Positions 3,001-64,000 of a DNA stretch of 64,000 nt are shown one piece after another; position 1 is the first letter of the stretch; the number at the start of each line of letters is the position of its first letter. The position numbers are program-made. The stretch covers positions 23,870,001 to 23,934,000 of the forward strand of contig NC_047028.1 of the NCBI RefSeq assembly GCF_902652985.1, given 5' to 3'. Source of the DNA: Pecten maximus (lineage: Eukaryota).

Positions 3001-6000
3001 AATAATAGCTTAGAAATACTATTCATACATTAAAAAACCGGTTTGGAATCCAGAGGAGTGACGGAATATTGTGTATTAAGTCTCCTTTTTAGACAGCTAA
3101 AGATTATTCATGTTTTAAGTTTTTTAGCTTATTAATCTTTTTAGAGTCCCTCCCGTCGGAACTTGACATCAATTACGGCCAAAATTTGGAACAAGTTTTT
3201 AGATATCAAATCAGCTGTGACATGTTACCGTCATATGCTGGTGAAGCGAGGGCCTTATTTATTTAGAGATCAACAATCAACAATAAGGAAACCGACATCT
3301 TCACGCTACCGTACAGATTTGTTTTAAGTTGTGTATGTCAATGGTTCTTTGTTTACATTATATGGACATTCCTACAAGTGACCAAATGTTATTTATTTAG
3401 CCTTTATTCCATAGAGATGGAGAAACATACAACAAAGACTAATTTTTGACATAGTTGATCCGTTAAAAGCATTGAACACGCCTTTGTTCTGTTAGATATT
3501 TGATTATGAAATGCTTATAGTACAAATCCATTTTTGGAAAACATCACCATATCTGTTTTTTGACATAGATAGGTTATTTGAAACAGCTGCAGACGCAGTA
3601 ACTATTACTTAATTTAAAATTAATAGATCTTCTAAAAGCAGGTAGCATGTCATAATGATTTACTATATATATTATTGTGTAATATCGATAATACGATTCT
3701 ATTTTTGGGAAACATTGACATTTTTGTGTTGTGATCAAAAGCAAATCATCGTATGCTAAAACCGAATTTTAGCAGACATGATCTGTAATTTACTGCTGTA
3801 CCAGATGTGAATGTGAGCTTATATAATAGGAGTTATTGGTTCACCACATCTACTACTAATAGACGCCAGTGCAGACATTTACGGAATATACTGGGTAAGT
3901 AGCTTTGGTTCATTATCTTAATGAGTTGACATTTTTGGTAAAACGTTCTTCGTGTATTCAAACGATGTAGAAATTTAATACTTAAGTCTACATTTATGTT
4001 TTAATTACATTCATGAACATGATAATATCTCGAACACTGATTCTCGATGAAGTATACGTTGCTATTTGGCAGTTAGTTCCTTCTATTTGATGTGGCTTTT
4101 ATTCATCCTATTCGCCAATGTTACACAGATTGAAAATAACAGATGCGTTTGTGTAAGAAAATAATAGATACAAAAGTATTTATAGTTGGACAGTATTCGT
4201 GTTCAAAACCCGATACCAGAACATTTTTATATTCTTCCAGGAAAATGACATTAGTTCCTGTGTTTTTTACTTTCCTCCGGTGTGTAGCAATACTGTCTGG
4301 GGGATGTTTGACAGAAGTTTCAGGACTTGCTGATCTAAAAAGAGAGGACGTTAGTCATAGAGGGATAGTGTATCTCAAACTTCCCGATGCTAAAATCCTT
4401 AGGAAGAGGGCTGCTGGAGTATTTCCTCAACCACCCGGGAAGTGAAGACTTGTAACAAAAGGAATCAATGATATCATAACTGAAAATGTTTTATTGTATA
4501 TATCGAAACATATCTGATTTGGTTATATGATTGCTGTGTTATTGTTATTGTTTAAACACACCCATTACAAAATGTTCGCATGCATGGGTGTAATATCGCA
4601 TATACTGAAATCATTAAAGGCTAATAAATTGATTCACATACTTCCAGACATTGGCAAAATTGAAAAGAATTTTTCAAGTTAGATAAAGTAGAGCCAAAAT
4701 GAACTAAATCACATAACTCTAGGACTCGTCAGTGATGCTAGTTGTCTCAAATGAACATAGGACGCGACCAAAAGTGACATCAAAATTTTAAAGAGAGGCG
4801 AAGCAAATTTCAATATTTGAATTTTAACGAACCTTAATAAAATGGGTATGGATTAAAACTAGACAAACAACCAGGCTACTATAAAATGTGGATATAAACG
4901 TGTAGACGAAACCTTATATGTATCTCAAAATTAATAAGATATAGGCAAAATATAAAACCTAATGAATATCTGGCAGCCTTAACAATCACCTGACCAGCGC
5001 TATCTAAACAGACCAACAAGCAAACTTCCTGTTTTGATACCACGTTTTATGTTACAATATTAAACCACATTAGTTATTATGACAACGGGAATATCATGTA
5101 GCCCGCATTTGCCCTAGCTTTTTATGGCGGGTGCCGTCCATGAAGTAGTAGGCCCTTACTCTCTCTCTCTACTCCTGATCGTATTACCCTTGCACTTTTG
5201 CTAATCTATATATTTGTTTATATTTTGTCTTTGTTCAATCGATTTTGAATCATGGTTTGGTTTTGATGTCGGTATTCTTTGTTGCTTCTTCTCTGCGTCT
5301 CCTGCAGTAAGAAATTTTGTTTTTTGTTTGTTTTTTAACAGGAAAATTGATTCACGTTAAAAGGCAAACTATTCTATACAAATATAATTGAAAGTCATTT
5401 TTCTAGTCTATACCGTTATGAAGGAAAACTATTTAAATGTATATATAAAAAGAGGTGTTCGCAATTAGTGTAATTGTACAACTAGGAATATAAACAATTA
5501 CAAAAGTTGTGGTCTGACGATCAAAGCATAAGTATAGCAAAATATTGATGGCGTGATATTTTGGAAACAAATTCTATATGTATATGGCGATCAAAGACAA
5601 ATAATTGTATGTTGATCCAAACTGAAAATAAGGCGACAATCATGAACTTTTACGGCCGTACCAGATGTGAATCTGGGATTATATAATAACAGGTGTCACA
5701 AGATTATCACATCTACGACCCTTAGACTGCCGTATGAACGTTTTCCGGAATACACCGAGTAAGTAGTTTTATATATCATACATATACCCTGACGTTAAGG
5801 TAAAATACTGAACTCTTATAACATTTTCAATAATTCTGAAAAAAATAATTGATATGCTTCGCATTTAAATGTTTTCCCGAAATATATGTAATATGTAAGG
5901 TCCGTTATGATAATACAAATGTTAAATGTATACCGGTCAACGCTAGTGTTAAACGTATACCGGTCAACGCTAGTATTAAATGTATACCGGTCAACGATAG

Positions 6001-62700: not shown

Positions 62701-64000
62701 AAAAAGTGTTACAGTTTTTTCATTTCATTTTGCCAGGCTCTTGTCGGCCATCGTACTCTGGCAATATCGCTACACACAAGAGTAAAGGCCAAACTATAGC
62801 AATCAATGCCATTTTTCTGAAAGAATATAAGATAAAAAATTGTGTTGGTATACATTTAACGATTGGTTATTTTCAGGTTAAAGAATGCAAGTAGAAATAC
62901 ATGTAAGCTTTTATTAAGAAATCTTTACCAAAACATGTTGTCAAGTCATAAAGGCATTAAGAAATATCTACTTACCCAGTGTACTCAGGAAAACGTTCGA
63001 AATGGGATATATCAGAGCTGGTGACACCTACTATTACATAAACTCCAATTACATCTGGTACGGCGGTAAAAATATAAATCATGTCTGAAAACATGGTAGC
63101 ATGCCACCTGCTTTGATGAGATCTATTAAGTCTAAATTTAGTAATCGTTACTGCATCCACAGCTGTTTAAATTTATTTTGTCTATGATCATAACACAAAT
63201 GTGATGATGTTTTCCAATGACGGATTCGAATCGTACTATCAGTATTACATTATCGAATATATAACAGAACATGAGGCGTGATGCCTGTTTTTATCAGATC
63301 AATTAAGTCCCAAATTGTTATTGTATTTACAGCTGTCTGAAATGAAGGACCAATGAATAATATTTGGTCACTCGTAGTAATGTCCAGGTACGTATCTTAT
63401 GTATACGAAAAGAGATTGAAATACAAGAGACTGACAAGAGCTTTTCCAATAACTTCTTTACCTACAAATGTCGAGTTCAAATTCTTCAAACATAATGATT
63501 GAATTTTTTGTAAACATATTCATTATGCGACAAAAGTTCGTATCAAAGGAAAGTTTAAATCTATTTTAACATATTGTGTTTGTGTGTTATATTGATAGAA
63601 AACTTCTTTAAATAACTCCGCTGAAATATGCACAAACGACGCCGCGAAGTTGAACATCACAGCTGATTATTACGCCAATCATACCGTCCGATTTAATTAT
63701 CAGTCCTTTCCTGGATTTCGTAGGTATGCTATTATTTCTCATGGTTATGTTAAATGTTCATTTTATTCATTTAAACATTCAGGTGAAAATGCATTCAAAC
63801 AAATATTTTGTGCTGATCACTGTGTATATTTTACGTTTGTCAGTATTTTTACGCGAACTCACGTCAATTGATGGACACAGAAGATTTTACATTTTTTGTG
63901 TTTGGGATATAAATTCACGATAAAAAGTACGTGGGAACGATAAGAAAGGTATTTTTCTGCTGGTACAACATTGGTACCGAATGTCACCGACCACTGTTTA

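What the first reader, a model, noticed from the sequence alone, without database searches (positions are those of the whole stretch)
4245..62812. Hidden C-terminal amidated Pro-rich peptide shared by A, B, H and J
Seen in sequence: RKR-AAGVFPQPP-GK* (A1), RKR-AAEVFPSPP-GK* (A3), RRDR-AAEELVAPPIPG-G* (B2, B3), RMSR-AAEELVLPPH-GR* (H) and SRNR-AAEELPPFPM-GK* (J); the D remnants end ..GPLGK. The residues between the sites vary, but the Arg before AA and the terminal G/GK/GR are kept across divergent paralogues. Established knowledge: R-x-x-R and KR are furin/PC sites, and terminal G(K/R) gives alpha-amidation. Inference: the ancestral product is a 9-12 aa mostly acidic, Pro-rich peptide amide, possibly trimmed further at the Ala-Ala dipeptide.
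[Added by the scan's program, not by the reader: the finding's places include an assembly gap (unread letters, written N; its length is only estimated) at 47688 to 48187. Whether the letters on both sides are continuous or in frame is not known: test that first.]
Basis: partly seen in the sequence, partly recalled or inferred. Interest (0 to 1): 0.75.

Follow-up and report, generated by a model that had tools for sequence, protein, structure and literature searches.

The report
Scallop orphan secreted-peptide gene cluster
The quoted peptides are the real C-terminal ends of a tandemly duplicated, scallop-only family of tiny secreted peptide precursors that no paper in the searched library describes; cleavage and amidation of these ends is plausible but unproven, and they are probably not the family's main conserved product.

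Summary
All six quoted strings are in the window, each followed by a stop. They end 65-71 aa ORFs: a signal-like N-terminus, a variable central peptide, a basic site, then AA(E)EL plus a short Pro-rich tail. The only relatives in 1.84 and 5.8 billion proteins are four sequences. Two are Pecten maximus RefSeq "uncharacterized" models that stop at the same place. So this is scallop DNA, not human. The window holds 18 profile hits. Eight are intact ORFs (A1, A3, B2, B3, C1-C3, H). The rest are broken, including J, which a transposon splits. The Arg and the terminal Gly occur together in A, B, H and J, but all three intact C copies lack both (SMSG-IAEEL..KES). A1/A3 and B2/B3 are 96-97% identical duplicates, so the six examples are four lineages. 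pN/pS is about 1 in the site and the tail, and the residue before the Gly differs between types. Cleavage and amidation of the tail is plausible. "Ancestral active product" is not shown. The mussel myticalin layout suggests the central peptide is the main product and the tail a short anionic extension. The assembly gap starts 81 nt after B3's stop codon and touches no part of the finding.

The parts
4245..4442 (+). A1 coding sequence (66 aa), a single coding exon. The tail peptide AAGVFPQPP-GK is at 4410-4442.
19738..19966 (+). A2, a broken A-type copy. It has one frameshift, and Met replaces the Arg before AA.
45223..45420 (+). A3 coding sequence (66 aa). The tail is at 45388-45420.
21841..22050 (+). 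B2 coding sequence (70 aa). The tail AAEELVAPPIPG-G is at 22012-22050.
47394..47603 (+). B3 coding sequence (70 aa). The tail is at 47565-47603, and the stop codon ends 81 nt before the assembly gap.
13808..14014 (+). C1 coding sequence (69 aa). It ends SMSG-IAEELHPYPKES, with no Arg site and no terminal Gly.
26660..26872 (+). C2 coding sequence (71 aa), same C-type end. Its central peptide ends in GGKR.
50063..50272 (-). C3 coding sequence (70 aa), same C-type end.
58163..58357 (+). H coding sequence (65 aa). The tail AAEELVLPPH-GR is at 58322-58357, and the central peptide has net charge +7.
61217..61359 (-). J, 3' piece of the coding exon. It carries SRNR-AAEELPPFPM-GK (tail at 61217-61252).
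62757..62812 (-). J, 5' piece of the coding exon (ATG plus signal-like residues).
61360..62756 (.). Non-autonomous DNA transposon inserted in J. Its terminal inverted repeats are 92 nt long and 98% complementary, and a short direct duplication flanks it.
2121..2195 (+). D1 remnant: profile hit on the 5' part only. The GPLGK string the finding quotes for this copy lies just beyond the hit, at 2274-2288. There are stops in the homologous frame.
17519..17678 (+). D2 remnant (GPLGK string at 17671-17685), with stops in the homologous frame. GPLGK is not followed by a stop.
43095..43254 (+). D3 remnant (GPLGK string at 43247-43261), in the same state as D2.
52803..53038 (-). E, a broken copy (frame change). 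Its tail-homologous part reads ..RSK-IAEEII.. with no stop at the family position.
54401..54465 (+). F5, a 3' fragment reading RRSR-AAEELPSHQIGN**. The Arg is kept, but the end is GN, not G or G-basic.
54706..54862 (+). F, a copy without the family ATG. It reads ..ILRDR-AADEIHRPYNQS.. and runs on with no stop at the family position.
59744..59976 (-). I, a broken copy with stops in the frame.
57764..57916 (+). Exon-1-like block of H (homologous to the first exon of RefSeq model P0004). Equivalent blocks lie at 13405-13542 (C1), 26203-26361 (C2), 50509-50670(-) (C3), 21091-21198 (B2), 46635-46778 (B3), 5646-5789 ('B1') and 53333-53455(-) (E).
47688..48187 (.). Assembly gap (N run). It lies downstream of B3 and is not part of any family member.

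Best explanation
The window is part of a scallop (Pecten) gene cluster in which a ~1.1-1.3 kb unit has been duplicated many times. The unit consists of a conserved upstream block, a short first exon, an intron that ends right at the ATG, and one coding exon.

Each intact coding exon encodes a 65-71 aa prepropeptide with these parts in order:
- a conserved hydrophobic signal-like N-terminus;
- a hypervariable central peptide of about 33-39 aa;
- a conserved junction, KP-x-x-DKI-(basic site)-AAEEL;
- a 5-8 residue variable Pro-rich end.

The quoted peptides are therefore true C-termini (shown). The Arg-containing site and the terminal Gly(+Lys/Arg) are inherited features. In A, B and H they would allow convertase cleavage, carboxypeptidase trimming and amidation of the tail (inferred).

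The more likely reading is that the family works like other fast-evolving bivalve secreted-peptide families such as the mussel myticalins. On that reading the variable central peptide is the main product, and the AAEEL tail is a short, mostly anionic C-terminal extension that is cleaved off. The tail is then at most a secondary product, not the conserved ancestral ligand (inferred). The biological role (host defence or signalling) is not established.
For: Real coding genes:
- 8 of 18 profile hits are intact ORFs in four lineages, and all indels between them are in frame.
- Two Pecten maximus RefSeq models and one unnamed 66-aa prediction end at the same stop.
- AATAAA lies ~44 nt after the stop in C1-C3 and H, and AATATA lies at the aligned place in B2.
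- An acceptor-like Y-tract plus CAG/TAG sits directly before each ATG.
- The first exon of the RefSeq model maps 250-650 nt upstream of each copy.

Processing site:
- P1 Arg is present in A1, A3, B2, B3, H, the J piece, F, F5, P0001 and P0002.
- RSRR occurs twice between repeat units in P0002.

Central peptide as the main variable product:
- pN is 0.46-0.64 in the central part, against 0.19-0.33 in the junction.
- Within C1-C3 nearly all differences fall in ~60 nt just after the signal region, and that segment ends in GGKR or GRKR. There are 17.8-22.3 nonsynonymous against 0.7-1.7 synonymous differences.
- A-type copies have an extra KR inside the central part.

Myticalin layout (passages read in PMC5577615):
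- a 5'UTR-only first exon and an intron right before the ATG;
- a conserved signal, a hypervariable central mature peptide, a conserved basic site and an anionic C-terminal extension;
- Gly-basic amidation of the central peptide, and pseudogenes within the family.

The residue before the terminal Gly is not conserved: P, L, G, H, M and A.
Against: - No expression, peptide or tissue data were available.
- No signal-peptide predictor was available, so 'signal peptide' rests on reading the sequence.
- The central peptides are not uniformly cationic. Net charge is 0 in B, +3 in A and J, and +7 in H. They are not Pro/Arg-rich, so the antimicrobial analogy is loose.
- The tail is itself variable. 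A1 and A3 differ by 2 nonsynonymous and 0 synonymous changes there, which could mean it is a selected product.
- P0002 also ends in Gly.
- No sequence similarity to myticalins or any other named family was found.
- For the C type, the RefSeq model starts at an ATG in exon 1, which would bury the hydrophobic segment. That ATG is present in C1-C3 and H and absent in B1-B3 and E.
Confidence: 0.5

Rival explanations
1. The short Pro-rich tail, released at the Arg and amidated at the terminal Gly, is the ancestral and principal bioactive product. The rest of the precursor is pro-region.
For: - The Arg and the G/GK/GR end occur together in A1, A3, B2, B3, H, the J piece, P0001 and P0002, and are lost together in C1-C3 and P0004.
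- The tree weakly nests C among Arg/Gly-bearing copies (64% bootstrap).
- The stop position is fixed in all subfamilies.
- Molluscan convertase, CPE and PAM processing is accepted practice for bivalve precursors (passage in PMC5577615).
Against: - The would-be amidated residue differs in every type.
- Only AAEEL at the tail's N-terminus is conserved.
- pN/pS in the tail is 0.50-1.26.
- 3 of 8 intact window copies lack both signals yet keep the ORF.
- J's site is not canonical, and P0002 has a 27-aa unit after the site.
- The six examples are four lineages, one of them disrupted by a transposon.
Confidence: 0.2
2. The tail is the truncated start of a second repeat unit. On this reading the ancestor was a multi-unit precursor like P0002, with units that begin [AI]A[DE][ED]L and are separated by R-x-R-R. 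In A, B, H and J only the first few residues of unit 2 survive.
For: - P0002 carries the motif three times: once straight after the signal region and once after each RSRR.
- B3 has ..SGIADHLQ.. at the start of its central peptide and RAAEELV after the site.
Against: - Only one relative shows repeats, and these may be a secondary internal duplication.
- No significant similarity between the tail and the start of the central peptide was shown by any search.
- The stop position is shared by all window subfamilies.
Confidence: 0.12
3. The tails are not translated as read. As in myticalins, an intron would begin a few residues after the basic site and a third exon would encode the real C-terminus.
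For: - Myticalin genes have exactly this arrangement (passage in PMC5577615).
- GT dinucleotides exist near the end of the ORF in A and J.
- DNA similarity continues for 300 nt or more past the stop.
Against: - No GT is shared at one position by all subfamilies.
- C copies have none before the last codons.
- Both RefSeq models and P0001 end at this stop.
- The poly(A) hexamer lies ~44 nt downstream in C and H.
- After the only acceptor-like site downstream, the sequence shows stop codons in all three frames within a few codons. This was read by eye from the alignment; no call translated it.
Confidence: 0.07
4. The unit is a decaying repeat with no protein function. On this reading the open frames and motifs are simply inherited from a recent common ancestor.
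For: - About half of the copies are broken: A2, D1-3, E, F, F5, I and J.
- pN/pS is near 1.
- The flanks are almost as conserved as the exon, 44-72% against 57-72%.
Against: - Four lineages with pS of 0.27-0.52 keep the frame open, and every indel between them is in frame.
- The hydrophobic N-terminus is the best conserved protein segment.
- Changes within C are concentrated in one segment and are overwhelmingly nonsynonymous. Neutral decay does not produce this pattern.
Confidence: 0.06

Closest known systems
Myticalins and modiocalins (linear antimicrobial peptide families of mussels; passages of PMC5577615 read)
   Same: - A multigene, fast-evolving bivalve family with pseudogenes.
- The first exon is 5'UTR only, and a short intron ends right before the ATG.
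- The precursor has a conserved signal, a hypervariable central peptide, a conserved basic cleavage site and an anionic C-terminal extension.
- Gly-basic amidation signals are used.
   Different: - No sequence similarity: no mussel protein appeared among the hits.
- No second intron or third exon was found.
- The extension here is only 11-13 aa, against 35-75 aa.
- The central peptides are not Pro/Arg-rich and not uniformly cationic (net 0 to +7).
- In A, B, H and J the Gly-basic signal sits at the end of the extension, not of the central peptide. Only the C type has it on the central peptide.
Amidated neuropeptide or peptide-hormone precursors in general (signal, basic sites, C-terminal Gly; recalled knowledge)
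   Same: - A small secretory precursor.
- R-x-x-R or K-R before the peptide.
- G, GK or GR at the extreme C-terminus.
- One relative (P0002) has repeated units between basic sites.
   Different: - The amidated end is not conserved between paralogues.
- The family is restricted to one scallop lineage and sits in a pseudogene-rich tandem cluster.
- It matches no known neuropeptide family.
- The searched literature does not mention it.
Conserved-signal, hypervariable-product gene superfamilies such as conotoxins and frog skin peptides (recalled knowledge; cited in general terms in PMC5577615)
   Same: The signal region is the best conserved part. Variation is focal and mostly nonsynonymous just behind it (C1-C3). 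The genes are tandemly duplicated.
   Different: There is no cysteine framework (0-3 Cys, not conserved). No homology was found, and there is no evidence of a venom or skin-gland context.

Membership tests
Myticalin/modiocalin family | Detectable sequence similarity to myticalin precursors | tested here: not met
   A profile search of 1.84 billion representatives returned 5 hits. Four are scallop or invertebrate-metagenome sequences and one is a repetitive signal-like match. None is from a mussel. The profile word-index search of 5.8 billion proteins returned the same 4. Pfam found no family.
Myticalin/modiocalin family | First exon 5'UTR only, with a short intron ending right before the ATG | tested here: met
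   An acceptor-like tract lies directly before each ATG. The first exon of RefSeq model P0004 maps 250-650 nt upstream of the copies. The exon-1 ATG is absent in B1-B3 and E.
Myticalin/modiocalin family | A phase-1 intron a few residues after the basic site, and a third exon encoding the rest of the anionic extension | tested here: not met
   There is no shared donor. The stop and poly(A) hexamer follow directly, no coding potential was seen downstream, and the RefSeq models end at the same stop. No transcript data were available.
Myticalin/modiocalin family | Central peptide strongly cationic (pI > 11) and rich in Pro/Arg | tested here: not met
   Net charge of the central part is 0 (B), +3 (A, J), 0 to +3 (C) and +7 (H). 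These parts are not Pro-rich.
Myticalin/modiocalin family | Gill or mucosal expression and antimicrobial activity | not testable with these tools
Amidated secretory peptide precursor (generic) | Cleavable N-terminal signal peptide | tested here: inconclusive
   A hydrophobic stretch is followed by S-E-G or S-G-G, which have small residues at -3 and -1. This was read from the sequences. No signal-peptide predictor was available. The C-type RefSeq model starts upstream of it.
Amidated secretory peptide precursor (generic) | Convertase site (K-R, R-R or R-x-x-R) directly before the peptide | tested here: met
   Met in A1, A3 and P0001 (R-K-R), in B2 and B3 (R-R-D-R), in H (R-M-S-R) and in P0002 (R-S-R-R, twice). 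Not met in the J piece (S-R-N-R) or in C1-C3 and P0004 (S-M-S-G).
Amidated secretory peptide precursor (generic) | Gly, alone or followed by basic residues only, at the peptide's C-terminus | tested here: met
   GK in A1, A3, J and P0001; GG in B2 and B3; GR in H; AG in P0002. Not met in C1-C3 and P0004 (KES) or in fragment F5 (GN).
Amidated secretory peptide precursor (generic) | Conserved amidated C-terminal motif among paralogues or orthologues | tested here: not met
   The residue before the Gly is P, L, G, H, M or A depending on the type. The tail has pN of 0.33-0.58 between subfamilies.
Amidated secretory peptide precursor (generic) | The peptide detected in amidated form, and co-expression with PAM, CPE and convertases | not testable with these tools
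   No mass-spectrometry or expression data were available.

The most novel reading that the evidence does not exclude
An undescribed, Pecten-restricted family of dual-product prepropeptides. Each gene would yield a hypervariable central peptide and a short Pro-rich C-terminal amide. The cleavage Arg and the amidation Gly would be gained or lost as a linked pair, as seen in the C type. Focal diversifying selection would point to a role in host defence or in chemical communication between individuals.
Probability: 0.2. Interest if true: 0.55.

Novelty: new member of a known kind. Interest (0 to 1): 0.35.

Why it matters
If these genes are expressed and processed, they add a lineage-specific peptide family to a commercially important bivalve. 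Cysteine-free secreted peptides are hardly known in bivalves. The cluster also gives a compact natural series for studying how cleavage and amidation signals evolve together. That series includes intact copies, a transposon-hit copy, frameshifted copies, copies that lost both signals, and a repeat-expanded relative. As it stands it is an orphan family annotated only as 'uncharacterized protein', with no functional evidence. For the scan, the main value is the correction: the peptides are real ORF ends, but conservation of the Arg and Gly is neither universal nor stronger than that of neighbouring codons.

Tried and rejected
- **Intron read-through.** My first suspicion was that the ORFs are first exons and the tails are read-through into an intron. 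I rejected it for four reasons. No shared donor exists. The stop and a poly(A) hexamer are aligned across copies. The RefSeq models end at the same stop. No downstream coding block was found.
- **Family and structure searches.** All of the following found nothing useful:
  - Pfam on five precursors: 0 families.
  - Single-sequence word-index search with B2: no candidate.
  - PDB profile search: 0 hits at E up to 1.
  - ESM Atlas with H: only unnamed clusters at 0.92 with recognition below the stated threshold, which I treated as no lead.
- **Literature.**
  - The two RefSeq locus and protein identifiers: 0 papers.
  - Four literal peptide strings: 0 papers.
  - 'Pecten maximus + signal peptide + amidated + precursor': 14 papers, 13 listed, none about this family judging by titles and abstract starts only.
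  - The scallop/lineage-specific/hypervariable search: 17 papers, 10 listed, none relevant by title.
  - The myticalin paper (PMC5577615) was read in passages only. The MyticalinDB paper (PMC12294457) was seen only as a search listing with the start of its abstract.
  - Supplements were closed and not opened. A scallop peptide catalogue held only in a supplement could have been missed.
- **Orthologue test.** It could not be done. No eukaryotic genome collection was available, genome contigs holds only bacteria and archaea, and its scan was not used.
- **P0005.** This 1053-aa hit with 15 matches to profile positions 6-20 was set aside as a repeated signal-like segment, not a relative.
- **P0003.** It reads a B-like gene partly in a shifted frame and was left out of the conservation counts.
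- **Selection within the C group.** The excess of nonsynonymous changes was checked against a plain DNA alignment to rule out an alignment artefact. The changes are real and focal. The counts are small and no significance test was run.
- **Spliced models.** The CDS lies in one exon, and exon 1 and exon 2 were examined separately.

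
Full report
**What is there.** The window is AT-rich (GC 0.26-0.40 in 2-kb windows) and has one N run, 47688-48187. All six peptide strings quoted for A1, A3, B2, B3, H and J are present exactly, each followed at once by a stop codon. 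Each one ends a short ORF. The exact coding sequences are A1 4245-4442, A3 45223-45420, B2 21841-22050, B3 47394-47603 and H 58163-58357, each 65-70 aa. There are also three copies the finding's title does not include: C1 13808-14014, C2 26660-26872 and C3 50063-50272(-), 69-71 aa. Every ORF starts with a hydrophobic stretch (M-x-L-x-x-V-x-x-P-F-L-L-C-V-A-I-L-S-E-G), which I read as a signal peptide. No predictor was available, so that is an inference.

**Origin.** Pfam finds no family in five precursors. A profile of six paralogues searched against 1.84 billion representative proteins found 5 proteins at E up to 0.001:
- P0001: 66 aa, from an unnamed contig, ending RKRAAEVFPPPLGK.
- P0002 and P0004: RefSeq 'uncharacterized protein' LOC117342956 and LOC117343017 of Pecten maximus.
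- P0003: a hypothetical protein from an 'invertebrate metagenome' record.
- P0005: a repetitive protein matching only profile positions 6-20, which I set aside.

A wider 11-row profile searched against 5.8 billion clustered proteins returned the same four and nothing else. The window is therefore scallop DNA, not human, and the family is restricted to this lineage as far as these databases show. No paper in the searched library mentions the two loci or prints the peptide strings.

**Gene structure.** Each ATG is directly preceded by a pyrimidine tract and CAG or TAG. The N-terminal 41-46 residues of RefSeq model P0004 map 250-650 nt upstream of the coding exons of C1-C3, B2, B3, H and E. So each gene has a short first exon, an intron that ends at the ATG, and one coding exon. 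The in-frame ATG that the RefSeq C-type model uses in exon 1 is present in C1-C3 and H. It is absent in B1-B3 and E, where stops lie just upstream. The ATG in front of the hydrophobic stretch is thus the only start shared by the family. The stop position aligns in all subfamilies. AATAAA lies about 44 nt after the stop in C1-C3 and H, and AATATA lies at the aligned place in B2. A3 and J have no canonical hexamer there; the nearest are about 180-200 nt downstream. I found no shared splice donor before the stop and saw no coding potential after it. The tails are therefore most likely true C-termini. The CDS lies in a single exon, so no joined-exon sequence was needed or made.

**Copy census.** A nucleotide profile of the exon finds 18 hits.
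- Eight are intact ORFs: A1, A3, B2, B3, C1, C2, C3 and H.
- The others are broken or partial:
  - A2: one frameshift, and Met in place of the Arg.
  - D1-D3: several stops each.
  - E: a frame change.
  - F and F5: fragments.
  - I: stops in the frame.
  - J: in two pieces.
- J is split by a 1.4-kb insertion with 92-nt terminal inverted repeats that are 98% complementary, at 61360-61451 and 62665-62756. I treated the two pieces separately and did not join them.
- The window is built from segmental duplicates. 2024-5920 matches 42997-46908 at 96.8%, and 21001-22127 matches 46545-47680 at 96.5%. A1/A3 and B2/B3 are therefore recent twins, and the six examples amount to four lineages.

**The gap.** B3's stop codon ends at 47606 and the gap starts at 47688. 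The left flank is collinear with the B2 unit up to 47680. The right flank 48188-49967 has no match elsewhere in the window. It begins with an EGF_CA-type ORF on the minus strand that runs into the gap. Continuity and frame across the gap cannot be tested from this window. The question does not affect any family member, and nothing was filled in.

**The two signals.** Table:
- P4-P1 before AA is L-R-K-R in A1, A3 and P0001; R-R-D-R in B2 and B3; R-M-S-R in H; and S-R-N-R in the J piece.
- It is S-M-S-G in C1-C3 and P0004.
- P0002 has R-S-R-R twice.
- The ends are GK (A1, A3, J, P0001), GG (B2, B3), GR (H), AG (P0002) and KES (C1-C3, P0004).
- Fragment F5 reads RRSR-AAEELPSHQIGN followed by two stops.

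Among the 8 intact window ORFs, 5 have both signals and 3 have neither. In every readable full-length sequence the Arg and the terminal Gly are present together or absent together. An unrooted NJ tree of the segment that every copy has in one piece puts C with H+J at 64% bootstrap. This weakly favours loss in C over gain in the others. The tree has no outgroup.

**Constraint.**
- In the A/B/H/J alignment, R55 and G65 are 2 of 14 invariant positions out of 66. After adding C1-C3, P0001, P0002 and P0004 (11 rows), only 7 invariant columns remain, and neither is among them.
- Between subfamilies, Nei-Gojobori pN/pS by segment is 0.37-1.00 in the signal part, 0.76-1.80 in the central part, 0.71-1.15 in the junction that holds the Arg, and 0.50-1.26 in the tail. 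The two residues are thus no better conserved than the local DNA.
- The exon is only modestly more conserved than its 120-nt flanks, 57-72% against 44-72% identity.
- Evidence that the ORFs are nevertheless under selection comes from three observations. Four lineages at pS 0.27-0.52 keep the frame. All indels between them are in frame. Within C1-C3 there are 17.8-22.3 nonsynonymous against 0.7-1.7 synonymous differences. Those differences are packed into about 60 nt just behind the signal region, in a segment that ends in G-G-K-R or G-R-K-R.

**Interpretation.** The layout matches what is described for mussel myticalins (passages read in PMC5577615). That layout is a 5'UTR exon, an intron at the ATG, a conserved signal, a hypervariable central peptide, a conserved basic site and a short anionic extension beginning AAEEL. 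In myticalins the central peptide is the product and the anionic extension is removed. In the C type here, the central peptide carries the Gly-basic signal. In A, B, H and J the Gly-basic signal sits at the very end instead, so an amidated tail is chemically plausible.

Four points argue against the tail being the conserved active ligand:
- The residue to be amidated differs in every type.
- Only the tail's N-terminal AAEEL is conserved.
- Three intact copies do without both signals.
- In P0002 the segment after the site is a 27-aa unit, and the [AI]A[DE][ED]L motif recurs three times, which hints that the tail may be the stub of a second unit.

I therefore rate 'real secretory precursors with a real processing site; tail a cleaved extension or at most a secondary product' at 0.5.

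**Known or new.** By sequence the family belongs to nothing named. By kind it is a further example of a fast-evolving, tandemly duplicated bivalve secreted-peptide family. It fails three myticalin membership features: sequence similarity, the third exon, and a cationic Pro/Arg-rich core. It meets the 5'UTR-exon feature and shares the precursor layout (signal, variable central peptide, basic site, anionic extension). It meets the generic convertase-site and terminal-Gly criteria in four of five subfamilies, but fails the criterion of a conserved amidated end. I class it as a new member of a known kind, of moderate interest.

**Limits.**
- No transcript, peptide or orthologous genome data could be consulted.
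- Paper supplements were closed.
- The signal peptide and the cleavage sites are read from sequence and rest on established rules for convertases, carboxypeptidase and PAM.

Noticed in passing
window 5920-7007 (and 5646-5789): A 27-nt minisatellite (40.3 copies, 88% matches) begins exactly where homology with the A3-B3 unit ends. A B-type first exon lies at 5646-5789, but the expected 'B1' coding exon is missing and the array sits in its place.
   Followed up: partly
window 26720-26790, 13868-13930, 50150-50212(-): In C1-C3 nearly all differences fall in ~60 nt just behind the signal region, while the rest of the exon is almost identical. There are 17.8-22.3 nonsynonymous against 0.7-1.7 synonymous differences. 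The segment holds 1-3 Cys and ends in GGKR or GRKR. This looks like focal diversifying change in an amidated central peptide.
   Followed up: partly
window 61360-62756: A non-autonomous DNA transposon with 92-nt terminal inverted repeats and several internal palindromic sub-repeats of the same motif is inserted in the signal-coding part of copy J. Other copies of this element in the window were not searched for.
   Followed up: partly
window 29270-35837: A non-LTR retrotransposon. It has a coiled-coil ORF1-like ORF (29270-30130), an endonuclease ORF (PF03372, 32374-33399), a reverse transcriptase ORF (PF00078, 33339-35018) and a further C-terminal ORF (35115-35837). The second reading frame is in three separate ORFs, so it has at least two breaks. 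The region also has strongly negative GC skew.
   Followed up: no
window 38360-38776(-) and 41463-42086(-): One ORF carries a DUF7869 domain (E 2.6e-08). Nearby is an acidic 207-aa ORF with no Pfam family. They may be remains of another mobile element.
   Followed up: no
window 48188-48392(-): An ORF with two calcium-binding EGF domains (PF07645, E 1.4e-17) runs into the right edge of the assembly gap on the minus strand. It is an exon of an unrelated gene cut by the gap or by an intron. The right flank 48188-49967 is unique in the window.
   Followed up: partly
window 57343-57732, 63090-63404(-), 12952-13336, 25761-26134, 50739-51125(-), 44335-44849, 53097-53562(-): A 300-500-nt block directly upstream of exon 1 is shared by the A, C, E, H and J units at 70-79% identity, at least as high as the coding exon. 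It is probably a common promoter region.
   Followed up: no
window 2085-2330, 17480-17730, 43058-43305 and 54612-54998: The D remnants and copy F share a different 5' end (..YINYIHEVLPF..) in place of the family's acceptor and ATG. They may therefore descend from one rearranged copy.
   Followed up: no
protein P0003 against window 21832-22060: The public 'invertebrate metagenome' protein P0003 matches B2 in two different frames (residues 1-46, and residues 38-76 at 97%). It is a gene model read across a frame change in a B-like scallop gene, not a microbial protein.
   Followed up: partly
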